The notes under the pieces: generated by a model | Told to the model about the DNA's origin: nothing | The model's database searches: none | What the model saw: the letters and a program-made list of their open reading frames with translations, nothing else | Program-made: the position numbers and the translations under genes | Shown here: positions 20,414 through 43,427 of the stretch, piece by piece | Position numbering within the stretch: position 1 is the first letter of the stretch | How the letters are laid out: the number at the start of each line of letters is the position of its first letter | Source: a virus | Virus record (IMG/VR): IMGVR_UViG_3300006854_000019 | Direction: 5' to 3' (one strand) | Length of the DNA: 64,000 bases

Positions 20414-22933
20414 TCAGCCGGTTCCGAAAATTTGCTGCACCTTCTGCAAGGTGGCGCGGAGCCACTTCTGCCCGGCGGGGCGGACCAGCGCGCTGGAAGC
20501 ACCTTCGGCAGAATTGCTGATGGCCGAAATCACCTGGCCGGCTTTGAGGGCGGCGGCGATCGCGGCGGCCTGATCGCGGCCGATTCGTTCGGCCAGCATG
20601 TGGGCGAAGTGATTGGCGGCCTCGTCGGGCGTTGCGCCCTGGTCGAGCGCGCTTTCCGCGTAGGGCTTGATGAACTGCAAGATTTCTTCATCAGTGATCC
20701 GAACCGCGGCGGGCGGGGCCGCGGGGTCGGCCTGCGGCGTGGGCGGCGGGCGCGCTGGCGGCGGGGCGGGCGGGACGGCGACGACTGGTGGGGCTTGCTG
20801 CGGCTGGGGCGCGACCTGCTGCGGTGGCGCCGCGGGGGCTGCTTGTTGCGGGCGGGCGATGGGCCCGCTTGGGCCGTGGCCTTCGGGGAAGGTCGGCGGC
20901 ATGTAGGGGATATCGGCGGGGCCCGCGAACTCCGGGCCGTCTTCGGTGGCGAATGCGTAGGGCTGGCCCGACGGGAGGGCGGGGCGTGAGGGGCCGGGCG
21001 CGGGGAGCGCGCGGGGGGGCGCCGCGCCGGGCATCATCATATGGGGCTGGACGGGGGCGCCGTTCTGCTGGCGGAGCGCGGCGATCGTTTTTCCGGCGCT
21101 CTCGACCATCTCGGGCAAGCGCGCGGCCAGGCGGATACCGACCTGCTGCCAGTTCATTTCGCCCTCGGCTTCATCGCCGCCACCTTCGCGCATGCCGAGT
21201 TCTTCGGCAGCAAGCTTGATCTCGTTGATGCGACCGGTGATGTCCTTGCTCTTCAGGATCTCGCGCTTCTGCTCGTGCACTTCGCCGCGCATCCGGGCGA
21301 GCTCCTGATCCTTGGCACTCATCTGTAGCTCGAAGGTCGTCTTCTGCGTTTCGAGCCGTGACGTGTACGTGGACTCGAAGCTTCGTAGCTCGCGCTCGTG
21401 CTGGCGGGTCTGATCATCCATCCGCTCTTTGGTGCGCCGGTCGGCGTCTTCGAGCTGGCGGCGGCAATTGGTTTCGACCTCGGTCACGCGGGAGGCGGAC
21501 GCTTCGCGGAGCTCGCGCATGCGATCTTCGCAGCGCCGCTCGACATCGATGACGCGTTGGTTCGCGCGATCTTCGGCGTCTTTGATCATTCGATCGGCGC
21601 GGGCGGCGGCTTCTGCAGTCCGCTTCATCTCGCGCTCGAGATCTTCTTGGTGCGCTTTGGTCAGCCGCTCGATGTGCGCCTGATGCTCGGCTGTCATCTG
21701 CCGGAGGTGCGCTTCGGATGCGCTCGCGTTACCGCCGCCCATCGTTTTGCTGAGCTCGGCGACAGCGCGCATCATCTCGACCGGATCCTGGCGTTGTTCG
21801 TTCACCATGCGAAGCTTCTCGGCCGCGTCCCGTTCCGCACGGGCGACGGCTTCCTTTCGTTCGCGTTCGATGCGCAGGATGTCCTGCTCGCGCATGTTGC
21901 TCACGAGCTGCACCATGGAAAGCGAGTCGCGCTCTTTTTCGCGGCGCAGATCGTCTTCCTTCTGCGAACGCTCTTTCTCGCGCTGCTCTTGGCGATCCTG
22001 CTGCCGCTCTTCGTGCCCGAGCTGGGCTTCGTACATCTTGGCGTCGGCAGGTGTAGCCGGCCGGCGGGTGAACCCTGGTTGCATGGCACTCCTCGGATCG
22101 TCGTCGTCGTCTTCCTCGCTCTCGTCGGAAACGACGATGGGCGGGGAGCCGTCAATCGGTATTGTGTACGTGACCGCGGGCGAAAGTCTTTTGGGGCGGA
22201 CCTTTTTGGTGACCGGATCGATCACGCCCATTCCATTTTTTGACGGGGGGCCATAGAGGATCAGGTTGTACTTGCCGCCGCCGTACGTGTACTGAAATTC
22301 CTGCGCCGTCATGGGCTCGGTGATCGGCCTCTGCATGCCGCGGACGGACAGTGAGCCCCAGGCTGTGGGCCACTTGCGATCGACCGTGATGTAGTAGTTG
22401 CCGTCGCCGATCGGCGCGAAGCTCATGAGGTCGTCGAGCGTTTCGGGTGTGAAGTCCGTGCCCACGTGATCGGTGACTTCGATGGTCGGCCGATCGCGTT
22501 TGGATGGGTCGGTCTCCTCGGGCGGGATGGGCGAGCCGGCGGAGTAGAACTCTGTGCGCTGGGCTACCTCTTTGATCGACGGGAGATTGTCTTCGGGGAT
22601 CGGCTCTTCTTCGGGCGGCGGGCGGCCGGCGAAGCGGCGCTGGAGGTACTCATCAAGCTCCGTACTAGGTGCGGGATCAGGAGGTGGTCGAGCAGCATCT
22701 GTTCCGTTGCGGCGCTTCTGACGAGGGACGCGAACGAGGCGTTGTCCATTTTCAATCTCTTCGCTTTCGGGCGGGAGCTCATCGAGCGCGGGGGCACGCT
22801 CGGTTTCCGATTGGACTTCGCTGCGCTTCTCGGCACGGCGCGCACGGCCGCGTGCGAGCGCGGCGAGTTGCGCGTCCGACAACGTGCGCTTCGGCTTCGG
22901 CGCGGGGATTCTTTCTTCACTCGTCTCGCTCAT
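20414..22933 (-). CDS. large coiled-coil protein with Pro-rich C-terminal third (839 aa)
   Basis: ATG 22933. Acidic/basic N-terminus, a small beta-like domain (GNYYITVDRKWPTAWGSLSV), about 330 aa of uninterrupted E/R/K/Q heptad-like sequence, then a P/A/Q-rich segment and a helical C-terminal domain. Confidence 0.8.
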   Translation of the reverse strand: MSETSEERIPAPKPKRTLSDAQLAALARGRARRAEKRSEVQSETERAPALDELPPESEEIENGQRLVRVPRQKRRNGTDAARPPPDPAPSTELDEYLQRRFAGRPPPEEEPIPEDNLPSIKEVAQRTEFYSAGSPIPPEETDPSKRDRPTIEVTDHVGTDFTPETLDDLMSFAPIGDGNYYITVDRKWPTAWGSLSVRGMQRPITEPMTAQEFQYTYGGGKYNLILYGPPSKNGMGVIDPVTKKVRPKRLSPAVTYTIPIDGSPPIVVSDESEEDDDDDPRSAMQPGFTRRPATPADAKMYEAQLGHEERQQDRQEQREKERSQKEDDLRREKERDSLSMVQLVSNMREQDILRIERERKEAVARAERDAAEKLRMVNEQRQDPVEMMRAVAELSKTMGGGNASASEAHLRQMTAEHQAHIERLTKAHQEDLEREMKRTAEAAARADRMIKDAEDRANQRVIDVERRCEDRMRELREASASRVTEVETNCRRQLEDADRRTKERMDDQTRQHERELRSFESTYTSRLETQKTTFELQMSAKDQELARMRGEVHEQKREILKSKDITGRINEIKLAAEELGMREGGGDEAEGEMNWQQVGIRLAARLPEMVESAGKTIAALRQQNGAPVQPHMMMPGAAPPRALPAPGPSRPALPSGQPYAFATEDGPEFAGPADIPYMPPTFPEGHGPSGPIARPQQAAPAAPPQQVAPQPQQAPPVVAVPPAPPPARPPPTPQADPAAPPAAVRITDEEILQFIKPYAESALDQGATPDEAANHFAHMLAERIGRDQAAAIAAALKAGQVISAISNSAEGASSALVRPAGQKWLRATLQKVQQIFGTG

Positions 22934-23754: not shown

Positions 23755-24399
23755 TCAGGTCTGGTTCGCTAGGGCCGTTTCCACGTCGAACGTCTGCTGC
23801 TCGAGGCGCGCTTTGCCTTCCGCGAGCTTCTTTTCGTCGAACGTGTCGAGATCCCGCTCTTCCGTTGCCGGGTCACGGGGTGATCGCATGTCGCATGCGT
23901 GGACGCGATTGTCACGCACGCTGAAAAACTCACCGTTTTCTCCGCGCTGGGCGGTGCACACGCGGCGGATGATGCGGTGGGTTGCGTCCATCTCGAAATC
24001 CACCATTTGCCGCTTGTAGTGCGCGCAGGCCGGGCGAATCGGCTCGACTTCGATCTCGCTGCGCATCGGCGCGGCGGTCCAGCCCATCACGGCGCGGGCA
24101 GTGTTATACTTGACGATGTAGCTCCCGTCGGGCAGCTGCTCCACTTGATCGGGGGTGAAGCGGGCGACGATGCGGCGGTGGCTATCGCGGATCACGAAAG
24201 CGCTCTTGTCCGCCATGCATACGAATGTCTCGAGCTCGAAAGGCGGCACGAACGCATCTTCGAGGGCGCTCGAGACGGCGGGCTTCGGCAGGCCGTCGAT
24301 CGGATCGGTGCCGAACACGCTCGGTTCGAGCGGGAAGGCGTCGTAGATTTCGTGGTCGGGGCGCGGGCCGCCGAAGCCGCCTGAAGATTCGTCGCTCAT
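23755..24399 (-). CDS. hypothetical protein (214 aa)
   Basis: ATG 24399 (MSDESSGGFGGPRPDHE); good third-position G+C; no motif recognised. Confidence 0.75.
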   Translation of the reverse strand: MSDESSGGFGGPRPDHEIYDAFPLEPSVFGTDPIDGLPKPAVSSALEDAFVPPFELETFVCMADKSAFVIRDSHRRIVARFTPDQVEQLPDGSYIVKYNTARAVMGWTAAPMRSEIEVEPIRPACAHYKRQMVDFEMDATHRIIRRVCTAQRGENGEFFSVRDNRVHACDMRSPRDPATEERDLDTFDEKKLAEGKARLEQQTFDVETALANQT

Positions 24400-24434: not shown

Positions 24435-25073
24435 TCAACCGGCAGCTTGCGGTCCAGGCTCCGATTCTTGGGTTTTTGGCACTGTCAAGTCTTTTTCGGA
24501 TTCGAGCTGTCGGGTTACGAACTCGAGTCGGAATTCTTGGGCCACAATCTGGGCCGCTCTGCCTAGTTTGAGCTTTCGGCGGGCTGCAACGTGGGCGTCT
24601 TCGAGCGACTTCGATGCTGTGACAAGCCGTGTCAGCCCTTCGTATTGCCGCACACAGGCCTCGAGCTCTCGAAGAAGTAAGTCCTGTGCGGCGGCGTGCG
24701 CTCGGGCTTGGGACTGGTAGAGGTCACTCCAGCTCTTCTTCTCACCCAGGATGCCTTCTATCTTGGCGACGACCTCTTCTCGCTTTCGCATCTCGTTCGC
24801 GAGCTCGGCCTTTTGAAGGGTGGCGGCGGCGCGAGCTTCGGTCTCGACCGACTCGCGGAGCGCGCGTTCGGCGAGCGCGGCATCATACGAGGTCTTCACA
24901 GCGTCGTCGGCCACGCGGATGGCGCCTTGCAGCTTCTCGAAGAGGTCGTCCACCGTTTTGCGGCGTTGCAAACCAAGGGGCGGGGGAAGGATGCCGAGGA
25001 GTACGAGGGTGTAGAGGGCGATGACGCAAAACGCCACAATAAATGGTTCGTAAACAATTAGGTGATTGAACAC
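24435..25073 (-). CDS. N-terminally anchored coiled-coil membrane protein (212 aa)
   Basis: GTG 25073 with GGAG 8 nt upstream; N-terminal helix IVYEPFIVAFCVIALYTLVLLGIL, then coiled-coil-like sequence. Confidence 0.7.
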   Translation of the reverse strand: MFNHLIVYEPFIVAFCVIALYTLVLLGILPPPLGLQRRKTVDDLFEKLQGAIRVADDAVKTSYDAALAERALRESVETEARAAATLQKAELANEMRKREEVVAKIEGILGEKKSWSDLYQSQARAHAAAQDLLLRELEACVRQYEGLTRLVTASKSLEDAHVAARRKLKLGRAAQIVAQEFRLEFVTRQLESEKDLTVPKTQESEPGPQAAG

Positions 25074-25099: not shown

Positions 25100-25945
25100 T
25101 TATTGATCTTCAGGGAAGATCCGGTTAAAAACCATGTCGGCCTCAGCGAAGTTTCCGCAGCAGAGCGTGACCCGGATTCCGTTGTTACCGAAAGACTCGA
25201 CCTTGACTTTTACGCCGGCTTTGCGCTCCATGCGAAGCTCGAGGTCGCGCAGGTTCGGGTTCACCACGGGAGGCACGCGCGGGCCGCGGCGCTTCGGGCT
25301 CACTATATTGCGAAGCTCGCGGCGGCTCGCCCCATTGAGGACCTTTTTCGTGAGCTCGGCGAGTTGCTCCCCGTTCTTCGCTTTAAGGAGCACGTTCGCG
25401 CGAGCCGTGGGGACTTTCCCGCTGCGGACAGCTTCTCTGACTGGCTCTGGAAGTTTCAATAGCCTAAGGATTTCACTCACGTGACCCTGGGACAGTCCGA
25501 TCGTTTTCGCGGCCATCTCCTGGCTGTAACCGAAGTCCTCAATGAGGTGGTGAACCCCCTCGGCCACATCGATCGAGTTCAAATCCTCGCGCTGCAAGTT
25601 TTCGATGAGCGCGATCGCTCGCTCGACGGGCGGGGCATCGTTACGAAGGAGGCACGGAACCTCGCGTAGTCCCGCGCGCTGCGCGGCACGCCAGCGGCGT
25701 TCGCCAGCAGTGATTTCGTAGGCGTCATCGCCGGTTCGGCGCACGAGCAGGGGCTCGAGGACGCCATGCTCGCGGATGGACTGGGCGAGCTCTTCTAACT
25801 TATCGGGGTCGAAGGATTTACGGGGCTGGTCCTTCGCTGGCGCAATCTTTTCCACCGGGATGGTGAGGAGGGCGGAGATCTCCCCAGCGCGGGGTGGTAA
25901 AAGCGCCTCAAGGCCGCGGCCTAAACCGCGCGCTTTTGTCGGCAT
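25100..25945 (-). CDS. parB: ParB/Spo0J-type partition protein (281 aa)
   Basis: MPTKARGLGRGLEALLP; GERRWRAAQRAGL arginine patch; HTH (QEMAAKTIGLSQGHVSEILRLLKLP); C-terminal dimerisation-like strand region. Confidence 0.9.
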   Translation of the reverse strand: MPTKARGLGRGLEALLPPRAGEISALLTIPVEKIAPAKDQPRKSFDPDKLEELAQSIREHGVLEPLLVRRTGDDAYEITAGERRWRAAQRAGLREVPCLLRNDAPPVERAIALIENLQREDLNSIDVAEGVHHLIEDFGYSQEMAAKTIGLSQGHVSEILRLLKLPEPVREAVRSGKVPTARANVLLKAKNGEQLAELTKKVLNGASRRELRNIVSPKRRGPRVPPVVNPNLRDLELRMERKAGVKVKVESFGNNGIRVTLCCGNFAEADMVFNRIFPEDQ

Positions 25946-26442
25946 GCTGAACCCCTTAACAGGCGATCTTGGATTGGGTCAAGGGTCGATGCCACAGGGC
26001 AGAGGGCGGCGGCGGTCGCTAGGACCACGCGCCGATCGCGGGAGGGGAGGGTGTGCACGAACGAGCTCACCGCGCGGCCGATTTGCTTCGTGCGATCGGC
26101 GGCGAGGGCGGTCACCACTGCGTTCTTGTCCGCGTAGCGGAGGACGCGGATCTGGGCGAGCTGGGCGATGGCGGAGAGGAGCTCTTCGACCGCCTGCACG
26201 CACGCGGGGTCTTCGGTGGGGTCGACCGGCGGGCCGATCGCGAGCACGCGCGGCATGTGCCGCTCGAAGACGACCCCGAGCACGAGCTGGTGCACGCGCC
26301 GGCGCTTATTAACGCTTGACTCCGAGGAAAGGGCGCGGGCGTGAAGGACATCGGCGTCGATGACCACGGCCCGGTTCATGTCGACGACGATCACGCTGTA
26401 GGCAAGGGCAGAAAGCCCGGGCGCGACGCCGATAACCCTCAT
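25921..26442 (-). CDS. RuvC-like (RNase H fold) protein lacking the catalytic acidic residues (173 aa)
   Basis: MRVIGVAPGLSALAYSVI aligns by eye with RuvC MR(I/V)LGIDPGL..GyGvi, but the Asp is Ala. VLAIGPP replaces a.aiEe.F. VVLATAAALC replaces DAaDAlAiAl. Sits where parA would be, overlapping parB by 25 nt. Confidence 0.6.
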   Translation of the reverse strand: MRVIGVAPGLSALAYSVIVVDMNRAVVIDADVLHARALSSESSVNKRRRVHQLVLGVVFERHMPRVLAIGPPVDPTEDPACVQAVEELLSAIAQLAQIRVLRYADKNAVVTALAADRTKQIGRAVSSFVHTLPSRDRRVVLATAAALCPVASTLDPIQDRLLRGSACRQKRAV

Positions 26443-26637
26443 CTACAGATCTCGTGACGCAAGGACGCGTGCGTACAGGCGTAGCGCGTCGAGCAGTACT
26501 TCATCGACTGATGTATCTCCGAGCTTGGCGGCAAGCTCGCGGGCGAGTGCGAGTGTAGTACCACTAACCTCGAGTGGTCTCAAGGTAGTCCGTTCGGCGG
26601 ATTCCGGTTCGCTGTCGTCAGTCGGAGTTCTCACCAT
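26443..26637 (-). CDS. ribbon-helix-helix-like small protein (64 aa)
   Basis: ATG 26637 (MVRTPTDD); the TTG-extended track start has low third-position G+C. LRPLEVSGTTLALARELAAKLGDTSVDEVLLDALRLYARVL = beta strand + two helices typical of RHH/CopG. Confidence 0.5.
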   Translation of the reverse strand: MVRTPTDDSEPESAERTTLRPLEVSGTTLALARELAAKLGDTSVDEVLLDALRLYARVLASRDL

Positions 26638-26678
26638 TGATCGAAGCGTAAGCCGAAGTCGAGCGGGCAATCAAACTT

Positions 26679-26876
26679 TCACACTGGAACGAACTCCCAT
26701 TCTTCCCACTCGAACTCGTCGCCGCGCCCGGGCCATGACTCGCCGGTGATACCGAATCGGAGAAGTCGGTACTGCCCTTCGCCGCGCGCTTCCCGTGGAT
26801 GGGTGAGCGGGCCGCTTTCGGTCGCGACGTGCTCGCTCTTTGGTTCGCCGCAGATCTTACAAATCTCGGTGGCCAT
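26679..26876 (-). CDS. small Cys-containing protein (65 aa)
   Basis: Internal ATG 26876 (MATEICKICGEPKSEH) overlapping the upstream stop by 1 nt. Confidence 0.55.
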   Translation of the reverse strand: MATEICKICGEPKSEHVATESGPLTHPREARGEGQYRLLRFGITGESWPGRGDEFEWEEWEFVPV

Positions 26877-27235
26877 CAGGCCTCGTCTTCTTGAGGCAGC
26901 ATCACGTCGGCCGTCCACCCGCAGGCTGGTTTGCTGCACACGTAGCGCGCTGTCTCGCGGAGCCACTGCACCGGTCGGCTGCAGCGCGGGCACTGGTGCC
27001 AGACGGTCTGGTTTTTCGGGATGTCTTCCTTGTCGATGTATCTGACGTGGCGCTCGAGCGTCTCTGCCGCGTAGCGAAGGTTCAGCGCGATGTATTCGAC
27101 GCTCTCGAGGTGCATCTTTGCGGCAGACCCGACCGCGCCGTTCAGGTTTCGCCACTGCTCAGCGAGGATGGCCACGTCTGCTTCCACCCGTTCGATGAGC
27201 TCGGCCGTGGCGAGAATCGGGTCCATGTCTTTCAT
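26876..27235 (-). CDS. hypothetical protein with C-terminal zinc-ribbon-like CxxC...C..C (119 aa)
   Basis: Internal ATG 27235 (MKDMDPILATAELIERV) in ATGA overlap; HQCPRCSRPVQWLRETARYVCSKPACGW. Confidence 0.6.
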   Translation of the reverse strand: MKDMDPILATAELIERVEADVAILAEQWRNLNGAVGSAAKMHLESVEYIALNLRYAAETLERHVRYIDKEDIPKNQTVWHQCPRCSRPVQWLRETARYVCSKPACGWTADVMLPQEDEA

Positions 27236-27648
27236 TGATCGCCGCGCTCCTTGGCCTTCGCGAGTTCCATCTCGCGCTTGGCCCAGGACATGGTGCCGAC
27301 GACGTTTGCTGGATCGGTTCTGGCGTCGATCTCTGCCTCGAGCTCGAGGACCCTCGCCAGTAGCTCGCGCATGATCCGCATCGCGGACTCGAAGACATTT
27401 TCTCCGCACGGATGCTTCTCGGCCTCACCCGGCATCTCGGCCAGGATGAAGTGGCTGAGCTCAATGAGCCTTTGCACGCCTTTGTCGCGAGCGCGCAGAA
27501 GATCTTGTTGCGTTCGGATGATCCGAATCGCCGTGTCGATCGCGCCTTCGCTTTGACTCGGCTCACCGGGCACCTCGGCCATGATGAAGTCTGCGAGCTT
27601 TTTGATCTGCGCGTCGAGTCGGAGGGCGTCTTGCGAAACGATGGTCAT
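27232..27648 (-). CDS. hypothetical protein with an internal duplication (138 aa)
   Basis: AAGGAG RBS upstream of ATG 27648; repeats LADFIMAEVPGEPSQSEGAIDTAIRIIRTQQDLL / LSHFILAEMPGEAEKHPCGENVFESAMRIMRELL. Confidence 0.7.
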   Translation of the reverse strand: MTIVSQDALRLDAQIKKLADFIMAEVPGEPSQSEGAIDTAIRIIRTQQDLLRARDKGVQRLIELSHFILAEMPGEAEKHPCGENVFESAMRIMRELLARVLELEAEIDARTDPANVVGTMSWAKREMELAKAKERGDQ

Positions 27649-27660
27649 GGTTCTCTCCTT

Positions 27661-29130
27661 TTACGGTGGTGGCGGGTCGTAGTCATCGTAATCGTCTTCG
27701 TACGCGGGCTCGGACGGCGTGAACTTCATCGTGCCGCCCGAGAAGTGAAACTCGATCGTGCAGGTCGGACCGTTTCGCTGCTTGGCAATGATCTGCTCGG
27801 TCGGCTTCGAGGCTTGGGAGCGGTCGTAGTAACCGGGGCGGTAGAGAAACCACACGTTGTCGGCGTCCTGCTCGATGGCGCCCGACTCGCGGAGATCGGA
27901 GAGCTGGGGGCGCTTGTTGGCGCCGCGGTTTTCGACGGCGCGATTGAGCTGCGAGACCTCGATGACGTGGACGTTCAGATCTTTGGCGATCGTTTTCAGG
28001 TCGCGCGTGAGGCTCGCGATCACTTGCTCGCGCGGGACGCCATCTTCTTTTCTGCCCTTCATGAGCTGGAGGTAATCGAAGGCGACTACGGATAGACGGG
28101 TGCACGGTGTGCTCGCGCGGCCGGTTTCGATTTCGCGCTGCAGCTTTCGGATCCGGCTTCTGGCATCGAGTGCGGTGATGGCTGCCGTGTCGTCGATCCA
28201 GATCGGCACGTTCTGCAGCGTGTGCGCGGCGGCGACCACGCGGCTCCATTCGGCCCCGGACATCGACCCACTGCGGATGGCGGAGAAGTCGACGCCGGCT
28301 TCCTGGCTGATGCAGCGCATGGCCATCTGCTCGCGCGGCATCTCGAGCGAAAACAGAAGCGCGCCTTCGGTGCGATCGATCGTGTCCGTGACGCGGCGGT
28401 GCGTGATGCCGCGGAAGAGTGAGACCAGGAACGCGGTCTTGCCCATGCCGGGGCGTCCGGCGAGCACAGTGGTGTCGCCCGAGTGGAGACCCGTCATCTT
28501 CTTATCGAGCTCGACGAAGCCCGTCTCCGTTCCCGTGATGAGCTCGCCCCGCTCGCGCGCACGGCCGCGATCTTCGATCACGCGCCGGACGATGGCACCG
28601 AGTGCTTCGACCTTCGTGTCCTGGTAGACATGGGCGACGGCGGACGTCTCGTTTTCGATCTGCTCGAGCCAGGTCTGGATGGACGCGAGACCGTCGGCGT
28701 CCGCCGGAAACTCGAGTTTATAACCTTCGGCGATCCGGGTGTGAAACTGGTCGAGCGTCACGCGCACGCGCCACGCGTCGCGGATCGCCTTGGCGTGCTC
28801 TTCGATGTGCAGGTAGTAGGGTTGGTTCGAGACGAGTGAAGCGATGTAGGCGGCGCCGCCGACCTGCTGCAGGCGGCCGCGGGCGTTCAGCTCGTTGGCG
28901 ATGATGCCGAGGTCGATGGGCTTTCCGGCGGCGGTGAGATCGGTGAGGACCTCGTAGATCCGGCGGTTCGCTTCCGAATAGAAATAGTCGGGTTTGAGGA
29001 TCGTGTTGACGCGATCGAAGACCGATGGGCTCTCGATCACCTGCGAGAGAACGGCGGCTTCGGAATCGAGTACGTGAGGTGCGACTCTCCCAGTTGGGCG
29101 AGGAGCAGGGGCCTCACGGGGCTGCATCAT
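27661..29130 (-). CDS. dnaB: replicative DNA helicase DnaB (489 aa)
   Basis: Internal ATG 29130 (MMQPREAP) overlapping the upstream TAA. DnaB N-terminal domain (DSEAAVLSQVIESPSVF), Walker A LAGRPGMGKTAF, Walker B VVAFDYLQLM, SQLNRAVENR, arginine finger region. Confidence 0.9.
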   Translation of the reverse strand: MMQPREAPAPRPTGRVAPHVLDSEAAVLSQVIESPSVFDRVNTILKPDYFYSEANRRIYEVLTDLTAAGKPIDLGIIANELNARGRLQQVGGAAYIASLVSNQPYYLHIEEHAKAIRDAWRVRVTLDQFHTRIAEGYKLEFPADADGLASIQTWLEQIENETSAVAHVYQDTKVEALGAIVRRVIEDRGRARERGELITGTETGFVELDKKMTGLHSGDTTVLAGRPGMGKTAFLVSLFRGITHRRVTDTIDRTEGALLFSLEMPREQMAMRCISQEAGVDFSAIRSGSMSGAEWSRVVAAAHTLQNVPIWIDDTAAITALDARSRIRKLQREIETGRASTPCTRLSVVAFDYLQLMKGRKEDGVPREQVIASLTRDLKTIAKDLNVHVIEVSQLNRAVENRGANKRPQLSDLRESGAIEQDADNVWFLYRPGYYDRSQASKPTEQIIAKQRNGPTCTIEFHFSGGTMKFTPSEPAYEDDYDDYDPPPP

Positions 29131-30074
29131 TACTCGACCACCACGTGTGCAGCTTCTGAGAGCTCCTGGATGTAGCGGCCTGCCAGATCGGCGATCGGAG
29201 CCGGGCTTGCGATGATGGTGTTCGCTTTTCGTTTCCAGCGATCGAGGATCAGGTCCCGGAGCTCGAAGAGGTACCAGTCGGGCACGTTCTTCACGGCCAG
29301 CCCATCGATCACCGCGAGCTCGCACTCGCGCAGGTTGTCGAGGGGATCGATCTCTTCGGTGTCTTTTCGGAAGTACTGCTTGAAGCGGCGCTGCATCGTG
29401 GGCGCGTACTCGTAGCGGGCCCAGATGCGGTGATTGCGGCGAAGGACGTTTTGGAGGATGGAGACCGAAAGCGTGGTGTGGACAGGGGCTTTTGCGGTGA
29501 TGACGAGCCAGGCGTCTTCAGAAACGCAGGCGCTCGTTACGAACGAATCGATCTTCTCGATCTCCTCGTCGCCCAGGACCACGTTCTGCCGCTCTAGATC
29601 GGCCATGCTCAGGCGCGAGCTACGCTGGTCGACGCCGGCATCCATCAGCCGGGCCCGCATCGCGTAGGCGCGCCAGGGATCGCAGCGCTCGGCCACCAGC
29701 TTGTCGCCATCCCATCGCGGTTTCATGCCGCGCTTCAGGCACGGGACCTGGTGTTTTTTGCAGGCGGCACCATCAGGAGGGCATGTCAAGCACAATTGAA
29801 TGCGCTCGTCGCACGCGCTGAAGTAGGCCGCTGTCTCGTCGAGGAGCGCGGCCTCAGGCAAGTCCACGCTGTTTGAGCTTTTGGAGCCAGAGAGGCGGAG
29901 ATTTACTAACGCCGGATGGAGCTTCTGAAGGTACGCCAGGGGGCCCCCCGCTTGCACCATTTCCTGACGCATCGCGTCCCGTTCTGTCGCGCGCTGCGTC
30001 AACAATCGGTCGTGTATCGACTGGAATTCTCCCTGACTCGACGGATCCAGCTTGCTCCCTCTGTCCTCGGCCAT
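29130..30074 (-). CDS. helicase-loader-position protein with a degenerate P-loop (314 aa)
   Basis: ATG 30074 (MAEDRGSKL) with GGAG 7 nt upstream. C-terminal half (LVITAKAPVHTTLSVSILQNV...ECELAVIDGL...RKANTIIAS) has DnaC/IstB-like strand order, but no GxxGxGK(T/S). Gene order is initiator - this - DnaB. Confidence 0.5.
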   Translation of the reverse strand: MAEDRGSKLDPSSQGEFQSIHDRLLTQRATERDAMRQEMVQAGGPLAYLQKLHPALVNLRLSGSKSSNSVDLPEAALLDETAAYFSACDERIQLCLTCPPDGAACKKHQVPCLKRGMKPRWDGDKLVAERCDPWRAYAMRARLMDAGVDQRSSRLSMADLERQNVVLGDEEIEKIDSFVTSACVSEDAWLVITAKAPVHTTLSVSILQNVLRRNHRIWARYEYAPTMQRRFKQYFRKDTEEIDPLDNLRECELAVIDGLAVKNVPDWYLFELRDLILDRWKRKANTIIASPAPIADLAGRYIQELSEAAHVVVE

Positions 30075-30984
30075 TGATGTCTCCTGCCCCCGCAGTGGAT
30101 ACCCCATCGAACCTTACGGATACCCCATCCCCGGTGCCCCCTGGGGCAAGAATGGGATATCCACCACCCGGGGTCGAGCGCCCACGTGAACAAGAGTTTA
30201 CGCTAATGGCTTGGTAGGGTGGGAAAGTCTTGGGATCTTCAGAACATGAGCTACTAAGAATGTGTGTGTGTGCTTCAGGTTCGGATGGGGTATCGGATGG
30301 GGTATCGAAGGGGTACAAAGAAGAAGAAGAAGAGAAAGACAAAGATACACACACAGGAAATGAATCTTTTTCTTCTCCGGAGGCGGATGGGGTATCGGAT
30401 GGGGTATCGACCTCGGATGGGGTATCCTGGAACCGAAATTCCAAGCCGATCATCGAATCCGCATTAGAGGCACCAGGATCGTCTTTCCCGCTGGCGATGA
30501 CGTGTTGGGTCGTCGAGACGAGCGCGGGGACCGTATAGCCCGCCCTAAGCCCGGCAATCACTATTCCGAAGGAACTGTTCCAACACCGTACGAGCCCAGG
30601 GTTCTCCGGATTGATGGAACTCGTGAGATTTTTGACATGTGAGAACTTTAGTCCACACACGGGCAGCTTCTTCCAGGTGTTCCACCAGGAGATCAGGGTC
30701 TTCCAGGAGTAACAAAGGTCATAACGCGCTGCGCGAGGAATCGAGATGAGCCGCGTGCCACGGTCGACTTGGATGATCCCCCGCCGCTCGAGGACAGCGA
30801 GCCCCTCCTCGACGTACTCTTCTGGCCGCACGATCTCGTCGCCGATGACCCTGGGGCTCGCCACCACGATGCCGGGAACTTTGATAATCAGGGTCCCATC
30901 GAGAAAAAATTTCAGCACCTGTCGCGCTGGATCCGGCAACGCCTTGAAAAACTGTTCTTGCCAGATGGGATGTGTTAGGCCCAT
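29854..30984 (-). CDS. putative replication initiator (wHTH-like N-terminal domain); ORF reads through the iteron origin, 3' boundary uncertain
   Basis: ATG 30984. N-terminal ~185 aa look coding (EEGLAVLERRGIIQVDRGTRLISIP). From ~30430 the frame translates the iterons (DTPSDTPS). From 30074 it has low third-position G+C while the overlapping loader frame is high. Confidence 0.5.
   Translation of the reverse strand: MGLTHPIWQEQFFKALPDPARQVLKFFLDGTLIIKVPGIVVASPRVIGDEIVRPEEYVEEGLAVLERRGIIQVDRGTRLISIPRAARYDLCYSWKTLISWWNTWKKLPVCGLKFSHVKNLTSSINPENPGLVRCWNSSFGIVIAGLRAGYTVPALVSTTQHVIASGKDDPGASNADSMIGLEFRFQDTPSEVDTPSDTPSASGEEKDSFPVCVSLSFSSSSSLYPFDTPSDTPSEPEAHTHILSSSCSEDPKTFPPYQAISVNSCSRGRSTPGGGYPILAPGGTGDGVSVRFDGVSTAGAGDINGRGQREQAGSVESGRIPVDTRPIVDAARDRTGRDASGNGASGGPPGVPSEAPSGVSKSPPLWLQKLKQRGLA
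30097..30426. other. putative origin of replication: 12-bp iterons GGATGGGGTATC + purine/AT-rich spacer
   Basis: Exact direct copies at 30283-30294, 30295-30306, 30385-30396, 30397-30408, 30415-30426. Exact inverted copies (GGATACCCCATC) at 30097-30108 and 30118-30129. Degenerate copies at ~30152-30162 and 30307-30316. (TG)6 at 30261-30272. Low-GC (GAA)n tract at 30317-30384. Confidence 0.7.
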
Positions 30985-42667: not shown

Positions 42668-42900
42668 ACCTCAACATCACGGTCATGGTGTATCGGGAGT
42701 ACACCGAAGAATTCAAGCAGCTCGCCACGCAGCTGATGCTCAGGCTCGACCACGAGACCGTGCTCATGATCCAGCTCAGCGGCCGGCTTCGGATCTCTCT
42801 CGAACGCGACGAGCCGGCGACCACCCTGCGCGTCGTCGATCGCCTGCTCGACCTCACTACCGAACCGCGCCGGCTAGTGCTGATTACGGTGATCGAATGA
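42661..42900 (+). CDS. hypothetical protein (79 aa)
   Basis: GTG 42661 overlapping the previous gene; ends in ATGA overlap with ruvC. Confidence 0.55.
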   Translation: MLNLNITVMVYREYTEEFKQLATQLMLRLDHETVLMIQLSGRLRISLERDEPATTLRVVDRLLDLTTEPRRLVLITVIE

Positions 42901-43427
42901 ATTCCCCGACAGTCGTCATCGGCATCGATCCCGGTCTCGTCTGCCCCGGCCTGGCGCTGATCTTAGGCGGCGATCTATCGCTCACCTGCTCGTACAAACC
43001 GAACCGGAAGCTAGCGCTGGCAGACAGACTCCGCGTGATCAGTGATTGCTTCGCCAAGGAGATCCTGACGCACAAGCCAGACGCGGTGGCCATCGAAGAA
43101 CAGCGTTTCGTGCAGGTCGGCAAGCGCGCGCGCGGGCAAATGGGCGAGCACAACTCGAAAACACTTATCGTCGTCGGTATCGCTGTGGCGCTCGCGTCAG
43201 TGGTCGGTGCAGAAGTCCTGTTCATCCCGCCCCAGAAGGCGAAGATCGCGGCCCTGGGCAAAGGCTACGGCAACGCATCGAAGGGCGCCGTACAGGTCGC
43301 GCTCCGCAGCTTGTTCCGGAAAGTACAATTCGAGGATGAAGCGCAGGCTGATGCCGCCGCCATCGCCATCGCCGGCTACAGGATGATGGGGCTTCCGAAG
43401 GAGCTCCGGCAGAAGGCCAGGCGATGA
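42897..43427 (+). CDS. ruvC: RuvC-family Holliday junction resolvase (176 aa)
   Basis: VVIGIDPGL (Asp 1), AVAIEEQRF (Glu), EDEAQADAAAIAIAGY (Asp/Asp region): all catalytic positions are present. Confidence 0.8.
   Translation: MNSPTVVIGIDPGLVCPGLALILGGDLSLTCSYKPNRKLALADRLRVISDCFAKEILTHKPDAVAIEEQRFVQVGKRARGQMGEHNSKTLIVVGIAVALASVVGAEVLFIPPQKAKIAALGKGYGNASKGAVQVALRSLFRKVQFEDEAQADAAAIAIAGYRMMGLPKELRQKARR

What the first reader, a model, noticed from the sequence alone, without database searches (positions are those of the whole stretch)
25100..26670. ParB paired with a catalytically dead RuvC-like protein and an RHH protein instead of a ParA
The ParB is canonical, but no Walker-type ParA is present in the window. 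The gene that overlaps the parB start (25921-26442) has a RuvC-like N-terminus and overall pattern. However, Ala, Gly/Pro and Thr/Ala occupy the positions of the catalytic Asp/Glu/Asp residues. A fully intact RuvC is encoded elsewhere (42897-43427). An RHH protein sits immediately upstream.

Inference: this could be a partition or genome-organisation module that uses an inactivated junction-binding protein as the ParB partner. Alternatively, ParB may be used here for something other than partition.
Basis: partly seen in the sequence, partly recalled or inferred. Interest (0 to 1): 0.6.

Follow-up and report, generated by a model that had tools for sequence, protein, structure and literature searches.

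The report
Dead RuvC beside an orphan ParB
A large uncultured bacterial virus carries a RuvC-shaped protein that has lost all four cutting residues; it is a core gene of that virus group, and the ParB gene next to it is an optional, host-derived add-on, not its dedicated partner.

Summary
ORF 25921-26442(-) is a true RuvC-fold protein (VIA-align Z 16.9 to Thermus RuvC; hhalign 92% to a bona fide RuvC). All four catalytic positions are replaced: Ala7, Gly70, Arg137/138, Leu141.

It belongs to an unannotated family of about 80 clusters, and every member except one true RuvC lacks these acids. ParB (25100-25945) is a three-domain, chromosome-type ParB (TIGR00180). The whole 138-kb viral genome has no ParA. 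An intact RuvC lies at 42897-43427. The "RHH" ORF is only tentative.

The proposed partnership is not well supported. The dead RuvC sits at a fixed place (DnaB ... dRuvC - w212 - w214 - w839) in 13 related viral elements. Only 3 of these have ParB, each time immediately downstream of it. One complete 179-kb relative has neither ParB nor ParA.

ParB without a neighbouring ParA is the norm in viral contigs (78 of 80). This ParB keeps the CTP motifs and the ParA-binding LGRGL peptide, but its DNA-recognition helix is altered and no parS was found.

Most likely these are two independent functions in one replication-proximal operon: a non-cutting branched-DNA binder, and an accessory orphan ParB clamp that may use host ParA. 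Interest is moderate.

The parts
25921..26442 (-). dRuvC: 173-aa RuvC-fold protein lacking all four catalytic carboxylates (Ala7, Gly70-Pro71, Arg137/Arg138, Leu141). Basic (pI 9.6). Core gene of this virus group.
25100..25945 (-). ParB, chromosome (Spo0J) type, 281 aa. It has the N-terminal LGRGL ParA-binding peptide, the GERRWRAAQ CTP motif, an HTH with an altered recognition helix, and a C-terminal region alignable to the cellular ParB dimerisation domain. Its start overlaps the dRuvC 3' end by 25 nt.
26443..26670 (-). Tentative 75-aa ribbon-helix-helix ORF. It is an ORFan with low GC3, in frame with dRuvC behind a single TAG.
27661..29325 (-). DnaB-type replicative helicase. It is the conserved upstream anchor of the operon in all relatives.
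24435..25073 (-). w212: membrane helix plus coiled coil. In relatives without ParB this gene directly follows dRuvC.
23755..24399 (-). w214: conserved Cys/His-rich protein (37-41% identity in relatives), used as the synteny marker.
20414..22933 (-). w839: long coiled-coil, proline-rich protein at the conserved downstream end of the syntenic block.
42897..43427 (+). Intact phage-type RuvC resolvase with the Asp/Glu/Asp motifs present. It is not a close paralogue of dRuvC (hhalign probability 2%).

Best explanation
The locus is part of the replication-proximal operon of a roughly 138-kb uncultured bacterial virus. ParB's nearest relatives are chromosomal ParBs of Polyangiaceae (Myxococcota), so the host is probably a member of that phylum (inference). 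Two functionally separate genes lie side by side.

(1) dRuvC derives from a bacterial-type RuvC. It keeps the fold and the structural motifs of helix 1 (Arg47, His51, Arg61, Pro64) but has no metal-binding acids. Arginines sit where the third acid was. The protein, and the family as a whole, is basic. Most likely it binds branched DNA (four-way junctions or forks) without cutting, as an engineered RuvC D7N/E66D does. It would act in viral replication or recombination independently of ParB. The binding step is inferred, not shown.

(2) ParB is an accessory gene captured from a host chromosome and inserted just downstream of dRuvC in a minority of these viruses. It keeps the CTP-switch motifs. 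In the window's lineage it also keeps a perfectly conserved ParA-activating N-terminal peptide. Its DNA-recognition helix has changed, and the genome has no host-type parS and no ParA. It probably works as an orphan CTP-dependent DNA clamp on a virus-specific site, possibly coupling the viral episome to the host's ParA.
For: dRuvC identity and loss of the active site:
- Fold and homology to RuvC.
- Loss of all four acids across a family of 82 cluster representatives, only one of which (P0084) is a true RuvC.
- Family median pI 9.3.
- dRuvC is nearer to bacterial RuvC than to the virus's own RuvC.

dRuvC is independent of ParB and of a viral RuvC:
- Fixed synteny in 13 elements, ParB present in only 3.
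- A complete 179-kb relative has dRuvC but neither ParB nor ParA.
- Relatives G003 and G006 have dRuvC but no detectable active RuvC, so a viral RuvC partner is not required.

ParB:
- Type and origin: TIGR00180; nearest relatives are cellular chromosomal ParBs at 42-49% identity, the named ones from Polyangiaceae.
- The alignment shows LGRGLEALL and GERRWRAAQ kept, but GKSR->GLSQ and EGHAR->TARAN in the HTH region.
- The first 17 residues are identical between the window's ParB and P0087, although the two are only about 60% identical overall.
- No canonical parS above the control.
- No ParA.
- Orphan ParB is the norm: 78 of 80 viral ParB loci lack a KGGxGK[ST] ORF within 3 kb. Orphan ParBs are also reported as widespread in the literature (bioRxiv 10.1101/2025.10.10.680097).

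Precedent: a catalytically dead RuvC binds and traps Holliday junctions (PMC5222578).
Against: - No biochemical data exist. DNA binding by dRuvC, dimerisation, and any ParB target are all inferred.
- In all three ParB-bearing elements ParB sits directly after dRuvC, even when the ParBs are only 37% identical. The ParB tree cannot tell one ancestral capture from two captures at the same spot. A functional link is therefore not excluded.
- L009's ParB lacks the LGRGL peptide, so use of host ParA cannot be general.
- The catalytic assignment of positions 3 and 4 rests on sequence and profile alignment. No residue-level structural superposition was available.
Confidence: 0.55

Rival explanations
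1. One reading: dRuvC is ParB's functional partner in a ParA-less partition or genome-organisation module. For example, dRuvC would mark branched or cruciform DNA as a structure-specific centromere, where ParB is loaded.
For: ParB lies directly downstream of dRuvC in 3 of 3 ParB-bearing elements, with a 25-nt overlap in the window. No parS and no ParA were found. The HTH recognition helix is altered.
Against: dRuvC occurs without ParB in 10 of 13 elements, including a complete genome. Among 80 other viral ParB loci, none outside this virus group has a dRuvC neighbour. Adjacency can be explained by simple inheritance of a single insertion.
Confidence: 0.12
2. ParB is a transcriptional regulator or silencer of the KorB/VirB/Noc kind, or a genome-compaction factor. 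It would have no role in segregation, and the LGRGL peptide would be a relic of recent capture.
For: Orphan ParBs with regulatory roles are established (papers listed). ParB is accessory in the group. L009's ParB has lost the ParA peptide.
Against: The first 17 residues, including LGRGL, are 100% conserved between two ParBs that are only 60% identical overall. This argues for selection on that peptide.
Confidence: 0.2
3. dRuvC is a poison subunit or decoy for the host RuvC or RuvAB-RuvC. It would form dead heterodimers or occupy junctions, so that viral branched replication intermediates are not resolved by the host.
For: dRuvC resembles bacterial RuvC more than the virus's own RuvC. Some relatives have no viral active RuvC. 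An engineered dead RuvC blocks junction processing in vivo (PMC5222578).
Against: There is no evidence on the dimer interface. Identity to any cellular RuvC is only about 20%, which is low for heterodimer formation.
Confidence: 0.12
4. dRuvC is still a nuclease, using a relocated active site built from other conserved residues (Asp29/Asp31, Glu60, Glu77, His51).
For: These residues are conserved in most family members.
Against: Arg47, His51, Arg61 and Pro64 align with the same residues of Thermus RuvC, so they are inherited structural positions. Asp29/31 lie on strand 3, which in the RNase H-like sheet order (3-2-1-4-5, from general knowledge) is at the edge, away from the strand 1/strand 4 catalytic centre. 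The canonical pocket is filled by Ala, Gly-Pro, Arg and Leu.
Confidence: 0.05

Closest known systems
Bacterial RuvC Holliday-junction resolvase (PF02075 / TIGR00228; structures 4LD0, 1HJR, 6LW3)
   Same: Same fold and length. The N-terminal G-x-x-P-G strand, the helix 1 motif (R...H...R..P) and the small-residue Ala-x-Ala-x-Ala pattern of the last helix are shared. VIA-align Z 16-17; hhalign 92% to a true RuvC.
   Different: All four catalytic acids are replaced. Scores fall below the Pfam and NCBIfam cut-offs. Family-specific Gly70-Pro71 and Glu77. An Arg-rich stretch sits at the former active site. The protein is encoded by a virus that in some lineages also has a separate active RuvC.
Engineered catalytically dead RuvC (RuvCDef, D7N/E66D), a Holliday-junction trap (PMC5222578)
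   Same: A RuvC scaffold without catalysis. It shows that such a protein can bind and shield four-way junctions.
   Different: RuvCDef is a laboratory construct with two point changes. The viral protein is a natural, long-diverged family, and its DNA binding is untested.
Natural RuvC/YqgF-fold pseudonucleases: the TEFM C-terminal domain, the Spt6/Tex YqgF domain, the inactive RuvC of Cas12k
   Same: RNase H-like resolvase fold reused without catalysis. TEFM, Spt6, Tex and Cas12k appear in the structural hit list at Z 9-11.
   Different: These are domains of large multidomain proteins with unrelated roles. They score well below RuvC itself as structural matches.
Chromosomal ParB/Spo0J of ParABS systems (TIGR00180), with Polyangiaceae ParB as nearest relative
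   Same: Three-domain architecture, GERRxRA and ENxQRE CTP motifs, N-terminal LGRGL ParA-binding peptide, 42-49% identity.
   Different: No cognate parA. No canonical parS on the replicon. Key recognition-helix residues are changed. Virus-encoded and fast-evolving (long branches).
Orphan ParB-CTPase proteins (Noc, KorB, VirB, phage ParB-like proteins; bioRxiv 10.1101/2025.10.10.680097)
   Same: A ParB-fold protein encoded away from any parA. This is common on mobile elements and phages.
   Different: That survey reports that most orphans lack the ParA-binding motif and that the canonical HTH plus C-terminal architecture is rare in phages. This ParB keeps both.

Membership tests
RuvC resolvase (PF02075/TIGR00228) | RNase H-like RuvC fold | tested here: met
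   AF2 mean pLDDT 80. Foldseek E 3e-7 to RuvC structures. VIA-align Z 16.9, 137 residues aligned, rmsd 3.5. The Atlas's own model gives TM 0.75 to RuvC clusters.
RuvC resolvase (PF02075/TIGR00228) | Profile score above the curated cut-off | tested here: not met
   Pfam 16.5 bits against 22.2. NCBIfam NF000711 20.9 bits against 163. Only 15 of 66 family members reach Pfam RuvC at E <= 0.1.
RuvC resolvase (PF02075/TIGR00228) | Catalytic tetrad Asp-Glu-(Asp/His)-Asp | tested here: not met
   Ala7, Gly70, Arg137/138 and Leu141 in the window. The same classes of residue occur across the family.
RuvC resolvase (PF02075/TIGR00228) | Homodimer that binds and symmetrically cuts Holliday junctions | not testable with these tools
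   Needs biochemistry or multimer modelling.
ParABS partition system (type Ia / chromosomal) | ParB with an N-terminal CTPase domain (GERRxRA) and an HTH domain | tested here: met
   ParB_N 4e-32, HTH_ParB 5e-20. TIGR00180 164.8 bits against 58.45. Motifs seen in the alignment.
ParABS partition system (type Ia / chromosomal) | ParB C-terminal dimerisation domain (PF23552) | tested here: inconclusive
   Pfam does not call it. However, the C-terminal 50 residues align with those of cellular ParBs, including invariant R-D-L...R...G.
ParABS partition system (type Ia / chromosomal) | ParA-binding N-terminal peptide [L/I/F]G[K/R]G[L/I/F] | tested here: met
   LGRGL at residues 8-12. The motif definition is from bioRxiv 10.1101/2025.10.10.680097. 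The peptide is absent in L009's ParB.
ParABS partition system (type Ia / chromosomal) | Cognate Walker-type ParA on the same replicon | tested here: not met
   PF13614 and PF01656 give no match in 138 kb, while all 14 control genomes are positive. The Walker A scan finds only DnaB.
ParABS partition system (type Ia / chromosomal) | parS centromere sites | tested here: inconclusive
   Matches to canonical parS with up to 3 mismatches are not above the control. No repeated palindrome was found genome-wide or near parB. A divergent site cannot be excluded.
Ribbon-helix-helix (CopG/Arc/MetJ) DNA-binding proteins | Strand-helix-helix topology, supported by a profile match and by gene reality | tested here: inconclusive
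   AF2 gives strand 33-35 and helices 37-50 and 55-74 at pLDDT 82-93. Foldseek hits are mostly RHH proteins but with E > 1. No Pfam, PHROG or NCBIfam hit. No homologue. GC3 0.53.

The most novel reading that the evidence does not exclude
dRuvC is a natural Holliday-junction or fork 'trap' that serves as a hallmark replication factor of an undescribed group of large viruses. In the ParB-bearing members it would supply a structure-specific loading site, so that a ParB with a degenerate recognition helix is loaded at branched DNA instead of at a parS sequence. The viral genome would then be coupled to the host's ParA.
Probability: 0.06. Interest if true: 0.8.

Novelty: new variant of a known kind. 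Interest (0 to 1): 0.4.

Why it matters
Naturally inactivated stand-alone RuvC proteins are not annotated in Pfam, PHROGs or NCBIfam. Here an entire family of about 80 sequence clusters has lost the active site yet is kept at a fixed place in the replication module of a poorly known group of large viruses. That makes it a candidate natural junction-binding protein with a non-catalytic role.

The ParB is a rare example of a full three-domain, chromosome-type ParB on a virus. It retains the ParA-activating peptide but has neither ParA nor parS on its own genome. This gives a concrete, testable case of a virus possibly using the host's segregation ATPase.

The specific idea that first drew attention, dRuvC replacing ParA as ParB's partner, is probably wrong. 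The finding is therefore of moderate interest.

Tried and rejected
parS searches that found nothing:
- Canonical parS in the 138-kb genome: none with up to 3 mismatches. With degenerate centre positions, the count does not exceed the reversed-pattern control in five related genomes.
- De novo search for repeated perfect or near-perfect palindromes, genome-wide and around parB: only GC-rich, codon-driven motifs.
- The 18-bp palindrome at 26521-26538 is unique.

Searches for relatives and their genomic context:
- Single-protein scans of viral and genome contigs for dRuvC found nothing.
- Broad alignments A2 and A3 were too divergent to make search patterns.
- Sub-family alignments A6 and A7 found no viral loci.
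The contexts of about 70 family clusters, and of the 1750-bp ENA contig, could not be read.
- That P0001 and P0087 lie on one contig is inferred from the shared source and contig length.

Other negative or indecisive results:
- The longer family members (254-269 aa) have low-complexity tails with no Pfam domain, so they give no fusion clue.
- The ParB phylogeny is not decisive. The viral ParBs sit on long branches, and their monophyly has support 21: neither supported nor rejected.
- Backbone trees leave the window and L009 in a polytomy.
- The promoter and terminator scan was uninformative.
- dRuvC as a recent paralogue of the virus's own RuvC is rejected (hhalign probability 2%).
Full report
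**Where the window lies.** The window is the minus strand of bases 47514-111513 of a 138,061-bp IMG/VR virus record that CheckV rates as complete. G+C is about 63%. Earlier notes of this scan describe the genome as a member of an undescribed group of large viruses with jelly-roll-type virion genes. They also place an iteron-type origin at 29854-30984. I did not retest these notes and use them only as context.

**Checking the observation.**
- ParB (25100-25945, minus strand) is confirmed by Pfam (ParB_N 4e-32, HTH_ParB 5e-20) and by NCBIfam TIGR00180 (164.8 bits against a cut-off of 58).
- The 173-aa ORF at 25921-26442 overlaps the parB start by 25 nt. Its third-position G+C is 0.83, typical of a real gene.
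- By sequence the ORF is only weakly RuvC: Pfam gives 16.5 bits, below the gathering score, over residues 3-70 only. It has no PHROG match.
- An AlphaFold2 (AF2) model built on seven homologues has mean pLDDT 80 and the RuvC order of secondary-structure elements.
- The first eleven Foldseek hits are all RuvC structures, E about 3e-7. VIA-align gives Z 16.9 to Thermus RuvC and 15.9 to Pseudomonas RuvC, ahead of Cas9 RuvC domains at Z 13 or lower.
- The ESM Atlas's own model also matches RuvC clusters (TM 0.75).

**An unannotated family.**
- A profile search of 1.84 billion cluster representatives returns 82 proteins at E <= 1e-3, of which 76 are below 1e-10.
- Only one of them, P0084, is a bona fide RuvC (Pfam 3.5e-35).
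- A profile of 20 family members that excludes P0084 aligns to it over its full length with hhalign probability 92%, E 6.6e-7.
- Homology to RuvC, and not just a shared fold, is therefore established.

**The catalytic positions.**
- HMMER aligns the family profile to Thermus RuvC so that Asp7 faces Ala and Glu70 faces Gly.
- Across 85 sequences, position 7 is Ala, Ser, Thr or Cys, and never Asp except in P0084. Position 70 is Gly in 78, followed by Pro in 77.
- In the last helix the conserved Ala142-x-Ala144-x-Ala146 pattern matches that of RuvC. This places Leu141 at the fourth Asp and Arg137/Arg138 at the third His/Asp.
- Asp136, which might look like a survivor, is conserved in only 45 of 85 members and lies outside the catalytic register.
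- Several strongly conserved residues (Arg47, His51, Arg61, Pro64) align with identical residues of Thermus RuvC, so they are inherited structural positions.
- The family is basic, with median pI 9.3.

**The other elements of the observation.**
- The intact RuvC at 42897-43427 is confirmed. It is not a close paralogue of dRuvC (hhalign probability 2%).
- No ParA exists anywhere in the 138 kb. Pfam AAA_31 and CbiA find nothing, while all 14 control genomes are positive. A Walker A scan of all open frames of 100 aa or more finds only DnaB and one doubtful match.
- The RHH ORF is uncertain. It has no homologue in 5.8 billion proteins. Its GC3 is 0.53. It is the in-frame open stretch upstream of dRuvC, ending in a TAG that abuts the ATG.
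- In favour of the RHH ORF, a single-sequence AF2 model gives strand-helix-helix with pLDDT 82-93. The non-significant Foldseek list is dominated by RHH proteins.

**Is the pairing conserved?**
- I found related loci through dRuvC itself and through the conserved neighbour w214.
- tblastn with the window's proteins, and an HMM of the family, show one syntenic block in all relatives: w376 - w325 - DnaB - variable genes - dRuvC - w212 - w214 - w197 - w839.
- dRuvC is present in 11 of 12 related loci, always with Ala, Ser or Cys at position 7 and Gly or Ala at position 70.
- ParB is present in only one of these loci, L009 (a 125-kb record with terminal repeats). There it lies 11 nt downstream of dRuvC and upstream of a w212-like gene, as in the window.
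- A third case is inferred. The 89%-identical dRuvC (P0001) and a 59%-identical ParB (P0087) both come from an ENA contig of 1750 bp.
- One complete 179-kb relative has neither ParB nor ParA. None of the five records searched has ParA.
- In summary, dRuvC does not need ParB, while ParB, when present, always follows dRuvC.

**One capture of ParB or two?**
- L009's ParB is closer to cellular ParBs (40-43% identity) than to the window's ParB (37%).
- In the tree the viral ParBs sit on long branches and group together with support of only 21, so their monophyly is neither supported nor rejected.
- Backbone trees leave the window and L009 in an unresolved polytomy.
- One ancestral capture and two captures at the same spot both remain possible.
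- Among the 80 best ParB loci in IMG/VR, only L009's contig has a dRuvC within 3 kb, and only 2 have a ParA-type Walker A ORF nearby.
- Orphan ParB is therefore ordinary in viral contigs, and a recent survey reports the same more broadly (bioRxiv 10.1101/2025.10.10.680097).

**What kind of ParB is it?**
- Its nearest relatives beyond P0087 are cellular chromosomal ParBs at 42-49% identity; the named ones are from Polyangiaceae.
- The alignment shows the ParA-binding peptide, the GERRWRAAQ and ENxQREDL motifs, and a C-terminal region that aligns with the cellular dimerisation domain.
- In the HTH region the cellular G-K-S-R becomes G-L-S-Q, and E-G-H-A-R becomes T-A-R-A-N. L009's ParB is changed there too, and it also lacks the N-terminal peptide.
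- From memory only: the Arg of G-K-S-R is needed for parS binding in Bacillus Spo0J. This was not checked here.
- The first 17 residues are identical between the window's ParB and P0087, although the two are only 60% identical overall. This points to selection on the ParA-contacting peptide.
- No canonical parS and no candidate repeated palindrome were found.

**Most likely mechanism.**
- dRuvC is a non-catalytic RuvC derivative that probably binds branched DNA in the replication or recombination module of this virus group. An engineered dead RuvC (D7N/E66D) binds and shields Holliday junctions (PMC5222578), which gives a precedent.
- Some relatives with dRuvC have no detectable viral active RuvC, so dRuvC is not simply a partner of the viral enzyme.
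- ParB is an accessory, host-derived orphan clamp with changed DNA specificity. In the window's lineage it may couple the viral genome to host ParA.
- A dedicated ParB-dRuvC partnership is unlikely but not excluded.
- The steps shown here are fold, homology, loss of the catalytic residues, synteny, absence of ParA and of canonical parS, and motif retention. DNA binding, dimerisation, the ParB target and use of host ParA are all inferred.

**Limits.**
- No residue-level structural superposition or multimer modelling was available.

Noticed in passing
window 25921-26442 (-): The public gene call for this protein (P0002, 152 aa, 100% identical over 88% of the query) seems to start at an internal Met. 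That would cut off the conserved first strand (M-R-V-I-G-V-A-P-G-L) that identifies it as RuvC-like. Family alignments support the 173-aa start.
   Followed up: partly
whole genome G000 (138 kb): Only two Walker A (G/A-x4-G-K-S/T) matches occur in open frames of 100 aa or more. One is in DnaB; the other is a doubtful one near window 34054. There is therefore no classical P-loop packaging ATPase or ParA. This fits the earlier notes that no known packaging motor is present.
   Followed up: no
window 23755-24399 (-) and homologues in L004, L005, L007: w214 has invariant Cys61, Cys125, His127, Cys148 and Cys169 among four homologues that are 39-41% identical. It may be a zinc-binding protein conserved next to dRuvC/w212.
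   Followed up: no
window 26679-27409 (-): Third-position G+C shows the coding frame is that of ORF 26876-27409, probably starting near 27235, with a C-terminal CxxC...CxxxxC pattern. A separate short ORF of about 65 aa ends at 26679 and begins M-A-T-E-I-C-K-I-C. The listed 158-aa ORF is probably not real over its full length.
   Followed up: partly
L005:3985-5457 and L009:4095-4874: Relatives carry a papain-like (Peptidase_C1, weak Pfam hit) protein between DnaB and dRuvC, in a region that varies between elements. The window lacks it.
   Followed up: no
window 26443-26445 (-): The tentative RHH ORF and dRuvC are in the same frame, separated by a single TAG that directly abuts the dRuvC ATG. 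Read-through would give an RHH-dRuvC fusion. No relative shows such an N-terminal extension.
   Followed up: partly
L015 (IMGVR_UViG_3300031772_004713): One relative keeps DnaB, w212, w214 and w839 but has no detectable dRuvC, even with the family HMM at E <= 1. This suggests loss or replacement in one lineage.
   Followed up: no
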